The notes beneath the pieces were generated by a model, which saw only the letters and a program-made list of their open reading frames with translations, ran no database searches and was not told the origin of the DNA. DNA of 64,000 bases from Enoplolaimus lenunculus (lineage: Eukaryota), in assembly GCA_030248215.1 (NCBI GenBank), contig JASANG010002509.1, forward strand, positions 682,001-746,000, read 5' to 3'. Shown here in pieces: positions 6,401-62,000 of the stretch (position 1 is the first letter of the stretch; each line of letters opens with the position of its first letter). A program made the translations under genes and the position numbers.

Positions 6401-9400
6401 TTGTTCACGTATTTGTGGGTTTTGTTTAAAAAAATGGTTGAAGTTCGTTTGACTAAATGCGAAATACGTATAGCACCTATCAGCAGTTAGCGCTAGGTTT
6501 TCTAACGGACGTACAGCTGCGTTTCAGATGTTAAAATTTGATCAGAAGTAGAACAAATCCAGTGCTAAAAAATATGTCCAATTTCTAAGCTCACTGCTAA
6601 AAAATATGTTCAATTTCTAAGCTCACCATTTGCTGATTCGAAAGTTATACAAACAGTGCCGGAGCAGGCAGTGGTTGAGACTCCCCTCAAATTTCAGGGT
6701 GGCGGCCCCCAAACTCGCGAGCGAAGCGAACCAGAAGCCAGACGCATTTTAAAACTTAAACGGTTTTTGATTCAACTAGTTAGGGTGTGGGGGCCGCTTT
6801 AGGGCTGAGGGGCCCCCGAAATGGGTGGTAATGGGGGGGTGGCTGCTCCGGCCCTGTATACAAAAATATATCGCCAACTAGTTAACAGGTGCTTTACATA
6901 TTTGACAATAAATACACAGCAATCTTTACTGCAAATTGTATTGAGAATCAGAATTTTGCTAACTTTTTTTGCAATCCAAAAATTTCAGCAAAGGCAGCGT
7001 CAACGTACACGGGAGTCTGGCTACTGAATCGGATATTGAGTATCAGCAAGTGCTGGACAATTTTTACGATGTACTCACGACAAATCATAATCGAATTGGA
7101 CCGTACAAAGTCGATCCGAGAAGCTTAATAATAGGAGGTATTAAGCTGATCTTGCCCTATTGGGGAGCACATAGACGTATAAGGTTATGGGTGGACTGTC
7201 ATCATGCTGACAGAGCCCTCAGCCACACTGTGAAAAATGGTGAGTCAAATTGACTCTCTCCGAAATAAGCGTCTCCGGACTACACAAACCGAGTCAAATT
7301 CGACTCCGCTCAAATTCAACTCGCTGAGCGACTCGGGTGAGTCGAATTTGACTCAGGGGTGGAGTCGAATTTGACTCAGTTTGTGCAGTCCACGAAGCCT
7401 ATTTTGGAGAGACTCAATTTGACTCACTATTTTTTGCAGTGCAGAAGGGTTAAGTCCTCGATTGAAAAATTTGCGCCCCCTCTGGACAAAATTTAGATTT
7501 ACTAGTAAGTAGTTTAAAATACCTTAATACCCCCTTCTAATCTAAGGCAACCCGTGCGTGTTGAGCTGGCTGCGGACCTACTGCTGGCTCTGGCGTGCTA
7601 TAAGATCACATAGCTTAATTTAGCACACATAATTAACCCTTTCTCACATGAATATTTTCTATTTCCCCTGAGACCTACTTTTATGCTAGGATTCGAACTC
7701 CGGTGACTGGAGTGGGACGCGTATACCATCACCACTCAGCTATAGGAGCTTGACGCTCGAGCCCGAGGGCGCTCTCACGTCTTGTGGCGATTTAGTACTA
7801 TGTATACGTGTTGCAATTGTTCAACACGGTGCGATATATATTATTTAACACATATACACTGCGCTAAGTTGCCCATAGGCAACTCAATGTGAGAACGGGT
7901 TAATACACTAATGGAAGGCCGATATACGTTTACTTATTGTGAATAAGCGTATTTTATCGTAAGGCAAATAATATCTTTGCGCCGTACGTATATATTGACA
8001 AATTTATAAGTTATTTTAGCGAGCAAAATTTGTTGTGCGACGTTTCACAGCTGTATAGTAGCATTCGTGAGACCATAACCGTCCGCTCCAGTGGAATCAT
8101 CCTCCAGGTGGAAGAATTTGAGTCGTTCTTGACCAGTGTTAAAGCCGCTCATCAGTCAGACGAAACCTCCGTCTGGCGTGTGATCGTCGTGAAATTTTCG
8201 CCCTCAGCTTGTTGAGTAGGCTAAAGGATTGTGATCGTTCTAAAATCACACAGCCTATTAAGGTTTATGCCCAAACAAATTGGCATACGGATTAGTGTTA
8301 GGCTACTACCGGTTTCGGGTTTTTAGATATTAAAGGAGTGAGTCAAAAACGGAGCAGTGGAGTGTCAACGGTCAACGGAGCGTCACCGTCGAGTCCTGGT
8401 CGGCTCCCACGATGGGCGGTCGGTGTGATTATAGCAATTTGCCTGTTGTTGCTAGCGTTAGTTGCTGTCAGCTTAATTATGGTGAGTGAAGAAAAAATTT
8501 GAATCGTCTTAAAGTCATTTGACGCATTTCAACAAGCAACTTCGTTCATGTGATATACAATATTCAAAATTGAAGCTTGAGTATTGAGTAAAACTGAAAA
8601 ATTAAGCCAGACTCATTGCAGGTTACTAAAATAAATTAGTTGCGCACGGTCTTGGGTTAGGGATTATTGATAACGTGTCAGCATTAAAAGAATGCGTCCA
8701 TGTAAAGATCAGGTACGGAACGTTTTAAGCTTTAGACTATTTTTTGCTTGGTTTAGGCTTAGGCTTAAGTTTAGGAATATGGTCATTCTTACACTTAGGC
8801 TTAGGCTTAGAAAGATGCTTATAATACTGTCCCGCCCGTGTTCTTTACCTTGGCCAAAGAATATAACGCATGGTTAAAGATAGTGGTGTTTACCATACTC
8901 GCCCCAGCCCACGTTTGCCCAAAAATGGATCGATTTTGAAAATTTTTGCAAATTTGAGCTTCTCGTTACCTCCATGTATCATTTTACGCCTAAATTTGAA
9001 TTTTTGAAAAATTATATTTTCAAGGTATCATAATCCAACTAGGGACCCAAAAAAATTTTTTTGTCAAAAATTTTAACAATTTTTATAGACGATTGGTTAA
9101 CAAATTATGGTCGAATAACTGATTTGGCGCCGTCCCAAATCGTTTGCAGCGCACCAAATCAGTTTTTTGACACCAGCTCGTTAACCAATAGTCTGCTTGC
9201 GGAAAACTTAACACCATTGGACTCCGTTCAGCAAGCTGCATCGAATGATATAAAAATTGTTAAACTTTTTGACAAAAAAAATTTTTTGGGTCCCTAGGGT
9301 GGATTTTGGGACGTTAAAAATGGAATTTTTTAAAAATTCAAATTTAGGCGTGGAATGATGATGGAAAGTCATGTGAACGTTAAAATATGCAAACATTTTT

Positions 9401-59013: not shown

Positions 59014-62000
59014 CTACTGGCGTGATGACGATTTGAAAATTTCACTATACGACGGCGGTGGCGGCGAAATTGGCTGACTGTGATCGTCAGGACATTCCCT
59101 TCGTTCCCTGTGAAAACTACTACTGCCACCATTGTAGTTTGTTCGAGTTGGGCTCGATCGCGGTACAAAGTCTTCAAAGCTTTCACTACGAAGAGCGGCG
59201 AGTTGTGAGTCTACAAGCAGTCGTCGCCTGCGATGATTCTGGTCAACAGCCGTTCTTGTTTTCGTCTGAATCGTAGTTTTTGATTCTTCCAGAATGTCGT
59301 CTTTATCATAACGTGGCGTCGGAGATGGAGAGCAATCGAATGGCCGAGCAGTTGTCGAATCCAGTCGGCCGGATGGGACTGAAGTCCGCCGTAGACGTTC
59401 AGCGCCGGTTGATGCAGCGGCACCCGGTGCTGAAGGCCGACAAGACGGCCGACGGCCATATTCTCGTTCAACAAACGCCGGATGAACACGACTAAAAAAC
59501 CATACGTCAGGATTTGGAGGTGAATTCGAGTCAGATTCGACCGAGCGAACTTTTGCCGATAAATCCGCCGATGGCAATGGAGTCCAACCGAGACGTTCCA
59601 GTGCGGCTGTGAGCGCAACCCAAAGATTCCGCGCTGCGACGCCGTTTTTCGAATCCGCTCCCCATGGTTTCGCTTTAAATTGCCAAGTTGGGATTTCAGA
59701 ATTGTCCGACAGTGTAATAATGCGTTCAGTGTCCAGTCCGAATGGCCAAAAGTCAGCAATAGCGTGCCGAATTGCAGTTAAAACTTCGTGCCGGCCATCG
59801 AAAACATTATCAGTAGTTGTAAGTGGCATTGGAAATCCGATTTGTTGTTTGTCATCCGGTTTCGGTACTGGTGAATTGGCAGCGATCAGCTGGAGTTGAT
59901 CCAACTCAATTGGACAAAGGCATATAAATTGCAGAGGAACACTTGGTTGCGCTGTTAATTGTCGAGCGAAGTTTTGTCCGTTTGAAACTGCGTTTGCTGC
60001 GAGTCCACCGTCTTCAACCAAATCAGCCATTTTACTGGCTGAATCAGAATAGTCTGTTGAGGTATTGATGGAATATTCTAAAACTAAAGTTGAAGTGTCG
60101 TCGCGTCTTCGTGATGTGTCCATTGCAATAATAAGGCGCCATCCGGCAACTGCTACGCGTTCAAGGATTCGTAAGACCAATCGTTTCGCAAGGATTTCTT
60201 CTTCACCGCTTGCGACCCAAGGAGATCCGTTGAGCTAAAGGATTAAACATTGATCACAGAACAGCAAATATGACACCAGTCAATAGACAACACAAAATTC
60301 AAAGACATACTTCAAGAAGACATTGTGAGAATGAGTTTAAACACTAAGTAACATAATTTTCAACTCATTTTGCAGCAAAAAAATATATTTAGCGATCAGG
60401 ACGTTTTACATCTGCAGTGGCTGATCCGAAACAAATTTAAGGAGGGTTCACAGATTGACATCCACGGAACCGAAGCGATACTTTAACCAATCCACTCATC
60501 GGGCCATGTTAATTTAAGGGGCGTCCAGGTTTCATGTGGGTCCATAAAATGAGTAAAGTTTAGATTCTAGATTACATTTTTTGCTTAGGCTTAGGCTTAG
60601 GCCACTCATCGATGCTGCTCGACTCGAAGCATTTTTCGATTGTAAACCTCCCAGGATCCACTTCTATAGACAAGTTTTAGCCGAAGCATCATTATTTCTT
60701 GTTGTTTTGAAATATTTAGGCGAACGTACCTATTTAATATTATACTTACGCACTTTTGTATCAATATTAATAATTATAAAACGTGACGATAAAAAACAAG
60801 TACCGAATGCGTTTTTCTGTAGGACTAGAATAAAATAAGCTTAAGCTTTAGACTATTTTTTTGCTTGGCTTAGGATTAGGCTTAGGCTAAGGTTTAGGAA
60901 TAGGTATAAACCTATTCTTACGCTTAGGCTTAGGCTTAAGCTTAGGCTTATAGGAATAAGCTTATAATACTGTTCCGCCCTTGTTTGATACATTGGCCCC
61001 GAACGTGAAACAACAAAATTTTATCAAACAAAAAATTATAAACAAAAATGGTACATACCTTAATATCATACACCATTCCATCATCGCGTGGCTTTTCGTT
61101 GCAAATTCCGGCCCGCCATTCATGCTGTATTGTTTGCCTAACGATAACAACCAAATCGCTCGGTGCACCAGTTAATCGTACTACACCCTTCTTTTCTAGT
61201 GTCAGTGCGCAGCGACACACTGTGCCCCAAGGTGCTGTCGTTTGCAGGCGGTCAGGATGCCACACCGATAAACTTGAGTCCGTTGTATTGAAAGGTTCAA
61301 TAGGATGCTATAAACCAAAACATAGGTCACAGCGGGCATTTAATTATTACCAACGAAAACTTTTTTCTGGAATCTATATCATTAAAGCTGGAATGCCCCA
61401 CATACGTATTTTAGGCAGGGTTCTAGCTGTTGCTGTTGTATACAAATTAAACAGTAGAACACATATGCAATTTGAAAGCGAATAAAACATGTTGTAGTAT
61501 TAAGAACTCAATGTTATGAAGGCAAACCAATTGCTACGAAAACTATTGTGTAGTTTTCACAGGCAGAAGTAAAAGTTTTAGTAGAAATATAGTCTAGAGT
61601 TGAGAAGTGCAAAGATGCAACCACGTTGACTAGCGTACCTTTAGTAACAATTTACACATTTTCAACGTCTAAAGTTGCACGGACTACTTAAATTCATGTA
61701 AACTCTTGACAAAGTACAGGCACTGAGAGAAAACAGGGGTGCGGGCTCCCCGTAAACTCGCAAGCGAAGCGAACGAGATGCCGGACGCTTTTTAAAACTT
61801 CGGCAGTTTTTGTTTCAGCCGGTTAGGGTGGGGTCGCTTTAGGGGTGAAGGCCCGCAAATGGGGGTTTGGGGGTCGCTGCTCCGGCCCTGAGCCACCGTG
61901 TCGCTGGATTTCACGGTTTGTTTCGGACCCAAAACATGAAATTTATAGTAGGTATAAATATTTATGTTAAAATGTTTTAAAACGTACGAAATCGCAGTCA

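What the first reader, a model, noticed from the sequence alone, without database searches (positions are those of the whole stretch)
8695..60998. Two sister MITE families that spread telomeric TTAGGC arrays (GG termini, 8-bp TSD, Merlin-like)
Seen: about 29 full or partial copies in 64 kb of two elements, mostly 150-290 bp. Family A TIR is GGCC(C/A)ATGTA(A/T)AGA(T/A)CAGGGGCGGAAC and family B TIR is GGCC(C/A)ATGTTACTTT. Each encloses short runs of TTAGGC in a fixed orientation, interrupted by conserved spacers such as GGAATA(T/C)GCT. Many have exact 8-bp TSDs (AGCGACTT, AAAATTCT, ACTTGGCT, ATTGTATA, GATGTTTG, AAACATTG), so they are transposon insertions and not chromosome-fusion scars. None interrupts an inferred coding exon. 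Known: TTAGGC is the nematode telomere repeat, and GG termini with 8-9-bp TSDs fit the Merlin/IS1016 superfamily (P and hAT also make 8-bp TSDs). Inference: a DNA-transposon system seeding interstitial telomeric sequence every ~2 kb could recruit telomere-binding proteins, serve as telomerase-healing or recombination sites, or use the hexamer as transposase binding sites.
Basis: partly seen in the sequence, partly recalled or inferred. Interest (0 to 1): 0.85.

Follow-up and report, generated by a model that had tools for sequence, protein, structure and literature searches.

The report
Nematode MITE carrying telomere-like repeats
A nematode genome holds an old, very abundant short jumping DNA element whose copies carry brief runs of the usual nematode telomere repeat, so it likely scattered thousands of telomere-like patches inside the chromosomes, but these runs appear to decay like neutral DNA and no telomere role is shown.

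Summary
The window carries 32 loci (29 with arrays) of one non-coding MITE lineage of about 190 bp, in two colinear subfamilies (A, B; about 70% alike outside the arrays). They have GGCC termini and 24-27 bp imperfect TIRs. 8-bp target duplications are exact in 6 of 14 two-ended copies and within one mismatch in 10 of 14; the null gave 0 and 2 of 182. Copies typically hold two blocks of 3-5 TTAGGC units, read left to right (92 of 93 hexamers). Contigs of two samples show hundreds of other loci ending at the same termini, with summed depth suggesting roughly 10^4 or more copies. The host is a nematode, probably outside Rhabditida. Its telomere repeat was not tested; TTAGGC is the usual one. The functional reading is unsupported. 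Copies are 5-29% diverged, perfect runs are short (median 14 bp), and array divergence equals a neutral simulation. No partner transposase was found, so Merlin is the best guess (about 50%), not a shown fact; MULE and hAT remain open. Verdict: a real, apparently undescribed transposon route to nematode interstitial telomere-like DNA, most likely passive cargo or old transposase-binding repeats.

The parts
8695..8855 (+). MITE subfamily A copy, 8-bp TSD with 1 mismatch
9911..10178 (-). Chimera: A left end and A spacer, then B spacer and B right end, joined inside the TTAGGC array; no TSD
   Evidence: left 73/79 to A vs 52/79 to B; right 40/44 to B; no 8-bp duplication within 3-bp shifts at up to 2 mismatches
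10627..10836 (-). A copy, TSD 1 mismatch
11136..11320 (+). B copy, exact TSD AAAATTCT
13104..13303 (-). A copy, TSD decayed (3 mismatches)
14908..15121 (-). A copy, exact TSD AGCGACTT
15479..15709 (-). B copy with three array blocks, exact TSD ACTTGGCT
15887..16072 (+). B copy, TSD 1 mismatch
16385..16530 (-). B copy lacking the middle module, TSD 1 mismatch
17841..18031 (-). B copy, left TIR partly deleted
18761..19056 (-). A copy with array+spacer module expanded to about 4 copies (54-bp period), right end lost
19992..20032 (+). A right-end fragment
21573..21712 (+). B copy truncated on the right
27266..28121 (+). A copy, exact TSD AAACATTG, interrupted by an unrelated TIR element of about 545 bp (about 27340-27885)
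29463..29535 (-). B right-end fragment
33484..33672 (+). B copy, left TIR partly deleted
35716..35877 (+). Diverged A copy
38671..38853 (+). B copy, exact TSD ATTGTATA
45400..45582 (-). Diverged B copy, 280 bp from an unrelated hAT remnant
47095..47262 (+). Highly diverged B copy (29% from consensus)
48820..48987 (+). Diverged A copy; 8-bp duplication CAAATTAT if the last C is counted as flank
49500..49655 (-). Diverged B-like copy, right end lost
52829..53013 (-). A copy; exact duplication GAAATTGT if a 2-bp insertion in the right TIR is allowed
56005..56140 (-). A copy lacking the left TIR
56243..56403 (-). Least diverged A copy (5%); 9-bp duplication with 1 mismatch
56915..57039 (+). A right part
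57067..57219 (-). Diverged A copy
58247..58438 (+). A copy, exact TSD GATGTTTG; used for the single-copy contig lay
60502..60603 (+). B copy with internal deletion from the first array to the terminal CC; exact duplication ACTCATCG
60798..60998 (+). A copy lacking the left TIR

Best explanation
This is one old, very high-copy non-coding MITE lineage of a nematode, with GGCC ends, 8-bp target duplications and internal blocks of TTAGGC, likely spread in trans by a cut-and-paste transposase (probably Merlin-type) and likely carrying the telomere-like runs as passive cargo that now decays neutrally. Shown: anatomy (27- or 24-bp left TIR, about 50-bp linker ending in a T run, block of 3-5 GCTTAG units, 17-18-bp spacer, second block, spacer, right TIR); 8-bp TSDs; A and B colinear; genome-wide abundance; copy-to-copy change in unit and module number; 5-29% divergence from consensus. 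Inferred: (1) an ancestral non-autonomous element acquired a short telomeric or interstitial telomeric tract, and the block+spacer module duplicated; (2) A and B arose from it as TIR-diverged subfamilies; (3) a transposase elsewhere in the genome amplified them into AT-rich, roughly AAAATTTT-like sites outside long exons; (4) slippage and unequal exchange now vary the arrays, and occasionally an A and a B copy recombine through them. Superfamily odds from structure only: Merlin 0.5, MULE 0.3, hAT 0.12, other 0.08.
For: TSD statistics. Colinearity and consensi (55/80 and 34/46 identity outside the arrays). Fixed orientation. Hundreds of contigs per run end at the termini with heterogeneous AT-rich flanks, agreement 0.38-0.48 (table 7; 507 and 272 contigs at the left end of one copy). 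Summed depth over that copy's left half is 1.2-1.5 million vs about 41 in unique flank in X1, and 0.26-0.29 million vs 13 in X3 (the tool warns this is no copy number, so order of magnitude only). Other contigs continue after the T run as GCTTAGGCTTAGG, so the array belongs to the family, not to these copies alone (table 7). Array substitution 44/574 (7.7%) vs 222/2073 (10.7%) elsewhere (Fisher p=0.03), but a neutral simulation with unit-number change gives 7.6% +/- 0.9 in arrays. A random hexamer class would equal TTAGGC about 1 time in 350, which favours telomeric origin. Merlin definition (GG ends, 24-462 bp TIRs, 8-9 bp TSD, frequent internal tandem repeats): PMC8101967 passages.
Against: No autonomous partner was seen. 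No Merlin or MULE transposase domain among 180 ORFs scanned (30, 150; a subset of the window's stop-to-stop ORFs of 55 aa or more; the one transposase hit was an unrelated hAT remnant), no long TIR-bounded element in the window, and no genome held. The species' telomere repeat is untested. The neutrality test rests on 15 copies and my own simulation, so selection on a small minority of copies is not excluded. The GCTTA/TAAGC motif also occurs in the spacers and the left linker, which fits a transposase-binding role rather than pure cargo.
Confidence: 0.62

Rival explanations
1. The hexamer blocks are subterminal transposase-binding repeats, as in mosquito MULEs or hAT elements; the match to the telomere repeat is convergent, or telomeric DNA was kept because it improved mobilisation.
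For: MULE families in Aedes have 8-9 bp TSDs, and 10 of 12 long-TIR families carry subterminal tandem repeats (PMC5225508 passages). GCTTA-type motifs recur in both spacers and in the left linker of A. A separate hAT-type element in this window also carries short GGTCTC hexamer repeats near its end. Two blocks are kept in both subfamilies.
Against: The arrays are not mirrored at both ends and lie in one orientation only. TIRs are 24-27 bp, not over 100 bp. The chance of hitting the TTAGGC class is about 1 in 350, though many repeat-bearing families exist across nematode genomes. Copies lacking a block still have good TSDs (16385, 56243), though these may be deletions after insertion.
Confidence: 0.25
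2. The copies act as interstitial telomere-like sites for the host: they bind telomere proteins, seed telomerase healing or ALT-type repair, or mark breakage sites.
For: Nematode CEH-37 homeodomains bind two-repeat double-stranded probes and are conserved across clades (PMC12084805 passages), and the median perfect run here is 14 bp. ITS-mediated break-induced replication and TALT are described in nematodes (PMC10760449 and PMC9071541 passages). One A/B chimera without TSD joins inside the array.
Against: Array divergence matches the neutral simulation. Only 3 of 29 copies have a perfect run of 24 bp or more. TEBP/POT proteins are reported as poorly conserved outside clades III and V. No copy in the window runs into a long pure telomeric tract. 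Nothing here measures binding or healing.
Confidence: 0.1
3. The repeats are ordinary interstitial telomere insertions or fusion scars that only look like transposons.
For: Degenerate TTAGGC tracts in introns are known in Caenorhabditis (PMC6800518 passages).
Against: Shared TIRs, shared spacers, 8-bp TSDs far above null, sharp genome-wide termini, and no head-to-head arrays inside copies.
Confidence: 0.02

Closest known systems
Non-autonomous Merlin elements of Caenorhabditis (MERLIN2-8_CB, Merlin1m_CE; Lopes et al. 2021, PMC8101967 passages and S1 table rows)
   Same: GG termini, 8-bp TSD, non-coding, internal tandem repeats in several families, nematode host
   Different: Listed C. briggsae tandem units are 17-26 bp, not the 6-bp telomere unit; most listed TIRs are longer (48-193 bp; one is 20 bp); the paper's main text has no occurrence of 'telomer'; no transposase link shown here
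Aedes MULE families (Muta1, Muta5) and their non-autonomous derivatives (PMC5225508 passages)
   Same: 8-9 bp TSD, short tandem repeats near the ends, hundreds of derivatives
   Different: MULE TIRs are mostly over 100 bp with repeats inside both TIRs, mixed 8/9-bp TSDs and little target preference; here 24-27 bp TIRs, almost all 8 bp, one-sided arrays and an AT-rich palindromic target bias
Telomere-bearing elements (TBE) of Oxytricha (PMC4724952 passages)
   Same: DNA transposon with TIRs that carries its host's telomere repeat to many internal sites
   Different: TBEs are Tc1/mariner, coding, ANT 3-bp TSD, with telomere repeats at the outer tips of both TIRs and a role in programmed rearrangement; here the repeats are internal and one-directional, in a non-coding 8-bp-TSD MITE of an animal
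Interstitial telomere sequences (ITS) of Caenorhabditis (PMC6800518 and PMC9071541 passages)
   Same: Degenerate plus perfect TTAGGC tracts inside chromosomes, depleted from exons
   Different: 1,229 ITS in C. elegans, origin called 'mysterious' and discussed as break repair or fusion; the passages read give no transposon carrier. Here the tracts sit inside TIR/TSD-bounded elements at about one per 2 kb

Membership tests
MITE (non-autonomous TIR DNA transposon) | Short, no coding capacity | tested here: met
   Consensi 194 and 189 bp; no transposase content
MITE (non-autonomous TIR DNA transposon) | Terminal inverted repeats and target-site duplication | tested here: met
   25/27 matches in the A TIR, 21/24 in the B TIR; TSD 6/14 exact, 10/14 within 1 mismatch
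MITE (non-autonomous TIR DNA transposon) | High copy number | tested here: met
   32 loci in 64 kb; hundreds of contigs ending at the termini and a depth ratio of order 10^4 (rough proxy)
Merlin/IS1016 superfamily | 5'-GG termini | tested here: met
   contig consensus beyond position 10172 completes GGCC
Merlin/IS1016 superfamily | 8-9 bp TSD and TIR 24-462 bp | tested here: met
   definition from PMC8101967
Merlin/IS1016 superfamily | Autonomous partner with DDE_Tnp_IS1595 transposase and the same TIRs | not testable with these tools
   No genome held; none in 180 window ORFs scanned; metagenome TIR scan gave only chance matches
MULE/Mutator | 8-10 bp TSD | tested here: met
MULE/Mutator | Long TIRs (typically over 100 bp) with subterminal repeats mirrored at both ends | tested here: not met
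   TIRs 24-27 bp; arrays 92:1 in one orientation. Typical, not universal: 2 of 14 Aedes families have TIRs under 60 bp
MULE/Mutator | MULE transposase partner | not testable with these tools
   as for Merlin
hAT | 8-bp TSD, short TIRs | tested here: met
hAT | CA/TA-type termini (recalled, from no call) | tested here: not met
   Ends are GGCC; the hAT remnant in this window has a CAGGGATG-type end unlike the MITE
TBE (telomere-bearing elements) | Telomere repeats at the outer ends of both TIRs, ANT TSD, coding | tested here: not met
   vs PMC4724952
True telomeric DNA of this species | TTAGGC arrays at chromosome ends | not testable with these tools
   Only collapsed contigs available. Prior: 64 of 67 determined nematodes use TTAGGC (PMC10760449), as does the early-branching Xiphinema index (10.64898/2025.12.19.695367)

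The most novel reading that the evidence does not exclude
A DNA transposon in an early-branching nematode captured the host telomere repeat and planted tens of thousands of short telomere-protein binding sites (for example for a CEH-37-type homeodomain) through the chromosomes. The repeats would help the element move or escape silencing, and some copies would now seed telomerase healing, ALT-type repair or ectopic recombination, making transposition a main source of nematode interstitial telomere DNA.
Probability: 0.12. Interest if true: 0.8.

Novelty: new variant of a known kind. Interest (0 to 1): 0.45.

Why it matters
The origin of nematode interstitial telomere sequences is described as unresolved and is usually put down to break repair or fusion. 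Here each short tract sits inside a TIR- and TSD-bounded element, which gives a concrete third route: bulk dispersal by cut-and-paste transposition. It is the animal, non-coding counterpart of ciliate telomere-bearing elements. It suggests a simple test in other nematodes: look for TIRs and TSDs around ITS tracts. It also warns that k-mer or FISH calls of the telomere motif in this species would be confounded by thousands of short internal runs. Without evidence of function it remains a curiosity of repeat biology.

Tried and rejected
Whole genome: none held, so no copy count, no autonomous element search and no telomere check. Metagenome scan with a degenerate TIR pattern: 17 distinct loci, none followed by a TTAGGC array (0-5 hexamers per locus), read as chance matches. 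Transposase in the window: Pfam on 30 + 150 ORFs found only a hAT dimerisation remnant at 44799-45026, which lies in a separate element with different ends and was rejected as partner. A piggyBac-like stretch at 26216-26557, recognised by eye from recall, had no Pfam hit. Long TIR-TIR pairs with TSD: only the copy with a nested insertion is exact; one-mismatch long pairs join ends that mostly have their own partners. Empty (insertion-free) sites: none among the listed rows, but the tables are heavily cut (9,150 and 427 joints not shown), so this is no evidence. Second-sample contigs reach 28-31 bp into three copies and span the 19992-20032 fragment; only the last meets the tool's 31-letter bridging rule. 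No RNA holder listed. Apparent array conservation (p=0.03) rejected as alignment bias. The CISD3 tree leaves the window outside the Rhabditida group (94/87) but unresolved. Earlier findings of this scan: nothing in 3 look-ups. Literature: 10 searches showed no listing that describes a TTAGGC-bearing MITE; I read passages of 8 papers only. Dfam and Repbase could not be searched; two .aln supplements of PMC8101967 were unreadable, and I saw 16 of 22 listed places in its supplement search, none a match to these TIRs.
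Full report
Observation. Pattern and blastn searches find 32 loci (4,893 bp, 7.6% of the window) of a short repeat; 29 hold array sequence, 14 on + and 15 on -. 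The ends are asymmetric: left GGCCCATGT, right GGCCAATGT. Of 14 copies with both termini located, 6 have exact and 10 have at most one-mismatch 8-bp duplications; one more fits 9 bp, and 3 fail at strict termini. Cross-paired flanks give 0 and 2 of 182. Three further copies show exact 8-bp duplications if a 1-2 bp terminal change or an internal deletion is allowed (48820, 52829, 60502). TTAGGCTTAGG occurs 49 times against 0.07 expected, 48 of them inside catalogued copies. Inside copies the hexamer reads left to right 92 times and the other way once.

Anatomy. Alignments of 11 A and 9 B copies give consensi of 194 and 189 bp. Both run: left TIR (27 bp in A, 24 bp in B), a linker of about 50 bp ending in a T run, a block of 3-5 GCTTAG units, a 17-18 bp spacer, a second block, a last spacer, right TIR. 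A and B align end to end, 55/80 and 34/46 identical outside the arrays, so they are subfamilies of one lineage. Copies differ in unit number and module number: one module in 16385 and 56243, three in 15479, about four in 18761. They are 5-29% diverged from consensus, so these insertions are old. Perfect telomeric runs are short: median 14 bp, maximum 26 bp, 3 of 29 copies at 24 bp or more; 111 of 178 in-register units are exact. One copy (9911-10178) has an A left half and a B right half joined within the array and no TSD, as a recombination or deletion between two copies would leave; it is a single case.

Host and context. A CISD3 exon has nematodes as all its named top hits, at 59-69% identity, none close. 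Its tree places it outside the Rhabditida group, unresolved. An early-branching nematode is my inference. Neighbouring genes include phosducin-like, F-box and ASC/degenerin domains. No copy overlaps the eight long ORFs (chance about 0.005); exon limits were not checked with RNA.

Genome-wide evidence. Three public DNA runs (two samples, one study, one coded organism) hold the region; the best holders may be the window's own source, so they are not independent. Laid contigs show hundreds of records that match up to the element termini and then continue into unrelated AT-rich flanks: for example 375/359/261 at 10627, 244/226/160 at 15479, and 507/272 at the left end of the 58247 copy. Flank consensi next to the termini are AAAATTTT-like, as is the profile of 13 window target sites (three of them need a terminal shift). 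Summed depth over the left half of one A copy is about 3 x 10^4 (X1) and 2 x 10^4 (X3) times the unique flank. The tool states that this is no copy number, so I take only the order of magnitude. Other contigs continue after the T run as GCTTAGGCTTAGG, so the array is a family feature.

Is the array under selection? Substitutions against consensus are 7.7% in arrays and 10.7% elsewhere (15 copies; p=0.03). A neutral simulation with uniform 10.7% substitution and changes in unit number gives 7.6% +/- 0.9 in arrays under the same alignment. The difference is alignment bias. There is no sign of constraint in this sample.

Superfamily. Merlin is defined by GG termini, 24-462 bp TIRs and 8-9 bp TSDs, and many families carry internal tandem repeats (PMC8101967, passages and S1 rows). 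All structural marks are met, but the defining transposase could not be tested. MULEs also give 8-9 bp TSDs and subterminal repeats, but usually in long mirrored TIRs and without target preference (PMC5225508, passages). hAT fits TSD and TIR length but not the GG ends (recalled); the hAT remnant in this window has different ends. No partner was found in the window or in metagenomes, and no genome is held. I put Merlin at about 0.5 and do not file it as a member.

Is it telomeric? TTAGGC was the telomere motif in 64 of 67 nematodes determined (PMC10760449, passages) and caps the chromosomes of the early-branching Xiphinema index (10.64898/2025.12.19.695367, passages). It is therefore likely this species' motif, but untested. 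A random hexamer class matches it 1 time in 350, which favours capture of telomeric DNA over coincidence. The GCTTA motif also appears in spacers and the left linker, so a transposase-binding role remains a real rival.

Mechanism. Most likely an ancestral non-autonomous element acquired a short telomeric tract, the block+spacer module duplicated, A and B diverged at their TIRs, and a transposase in trans amplified them into AT-rich non-coding DNA. The arrays now change by slippage and decay neutrally. The anatomy, TSDs, abundance and decay are shown; the capture, the transposase identity and the absence of function are inferred.

Comparison and novelty. Telomere-bearing DNA transposons are known in ciliates, with repeats at the TIR tips and ANT TSDs (PMC4724952, passages). 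Tandem-repeat-carrying Merlins and MULEs are known. Caenorhabditis has about 1,229 interstitial telomere tracts, mostly intronic, of unexplained origin (PMC6800518, PMC9071541, passages). Ten literature searches (listings and abstract starts, plus passages of eight papers) showed no TTAGGC-bearing MITE; the library is partial and Dfam/Repbase could not be checked. CEH-37 homeodomains bind two-repeat probes (PMC12084805, passages), so protein binding at some copies is possible, which keeps the novel case alive at low odds.

Verdict. Real, genome-wide, a new variant of a known kind. It offers a transposon route to nematode interstitial telomere-like DNA, without evidence of function or of recent activity. 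Interest 0.45; novel case probability 0.12, interest 0.8 if true.

Noticed in passing
window 44553-45122 (-): Separate non-autonomous hAT-type element of about 570 bp: CAGGGATG-type end, short GGTCTC hexamer repeats, and a hAT dimerisation-domain remnant at 44799-45026 (Pfam PF05699, E 9e-7); apparently in a phosducin-like gene intron.
   Followed up: partly
window 57854-58064, 7635-7845, 24582-24792, 55682-55872: Another very high-copy repeat of about 211 bp (summed contig depth 1.3-1.8 million); three copies are 92-96% alike, so younger than the MITE; holds tRNA-like A and B boxes by eye on the minus strand and a GC hairpin; ARAGORN calls no tRNA. SINE- or Helentron-like, unclassified.
   Followed up: partly
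window about 27340-27885: Single-copy (in window) TIR element of about 545 bp nested in the A copy 27266-28121, with 16-bp inverted ends and possibly a 2-bp AT duplication.
   Followed up: partly
window 18796: Four X1 contigs continue from the CCTAAG array into an AT-rich sequence not in the stretch (table 7); could be another repeat family with the hexamer or a subtelomere junction.
   Followed up: no
window 26216-26557 (+): Decayed stretch that looks like a piggyBac transposase C-terminus by eye (recalled motif); no Pfam hit.
   Followed up: partly
window 17313 (-), 35252 (+), 37476 (+): Isolated B-type left TIRs followed by other repeat families rather than the MITE body; probably truncated or interrupted copies.
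   Followed up: partly
window 73-169 and 3559-4298: GC-rich 20-25 bp minisatellites (31.5 copies at 3590-4219) with inverted ends, related to each other.
   Followed up: no
window 32611-32991 (-) and 30211-31716 (-): ORF with a weak below-cutoff MACPF_SNTX Pfam match (E 5e-4), upstream of a 501-aa ORF with no Pfam family.
   Followed up: no
L007 1-1700: AT-rich metagenome contig with a complex tandem repeat whose unit resembles the TIR pattern but has no TTAGGC array; treated as chance.
   Followed up: no
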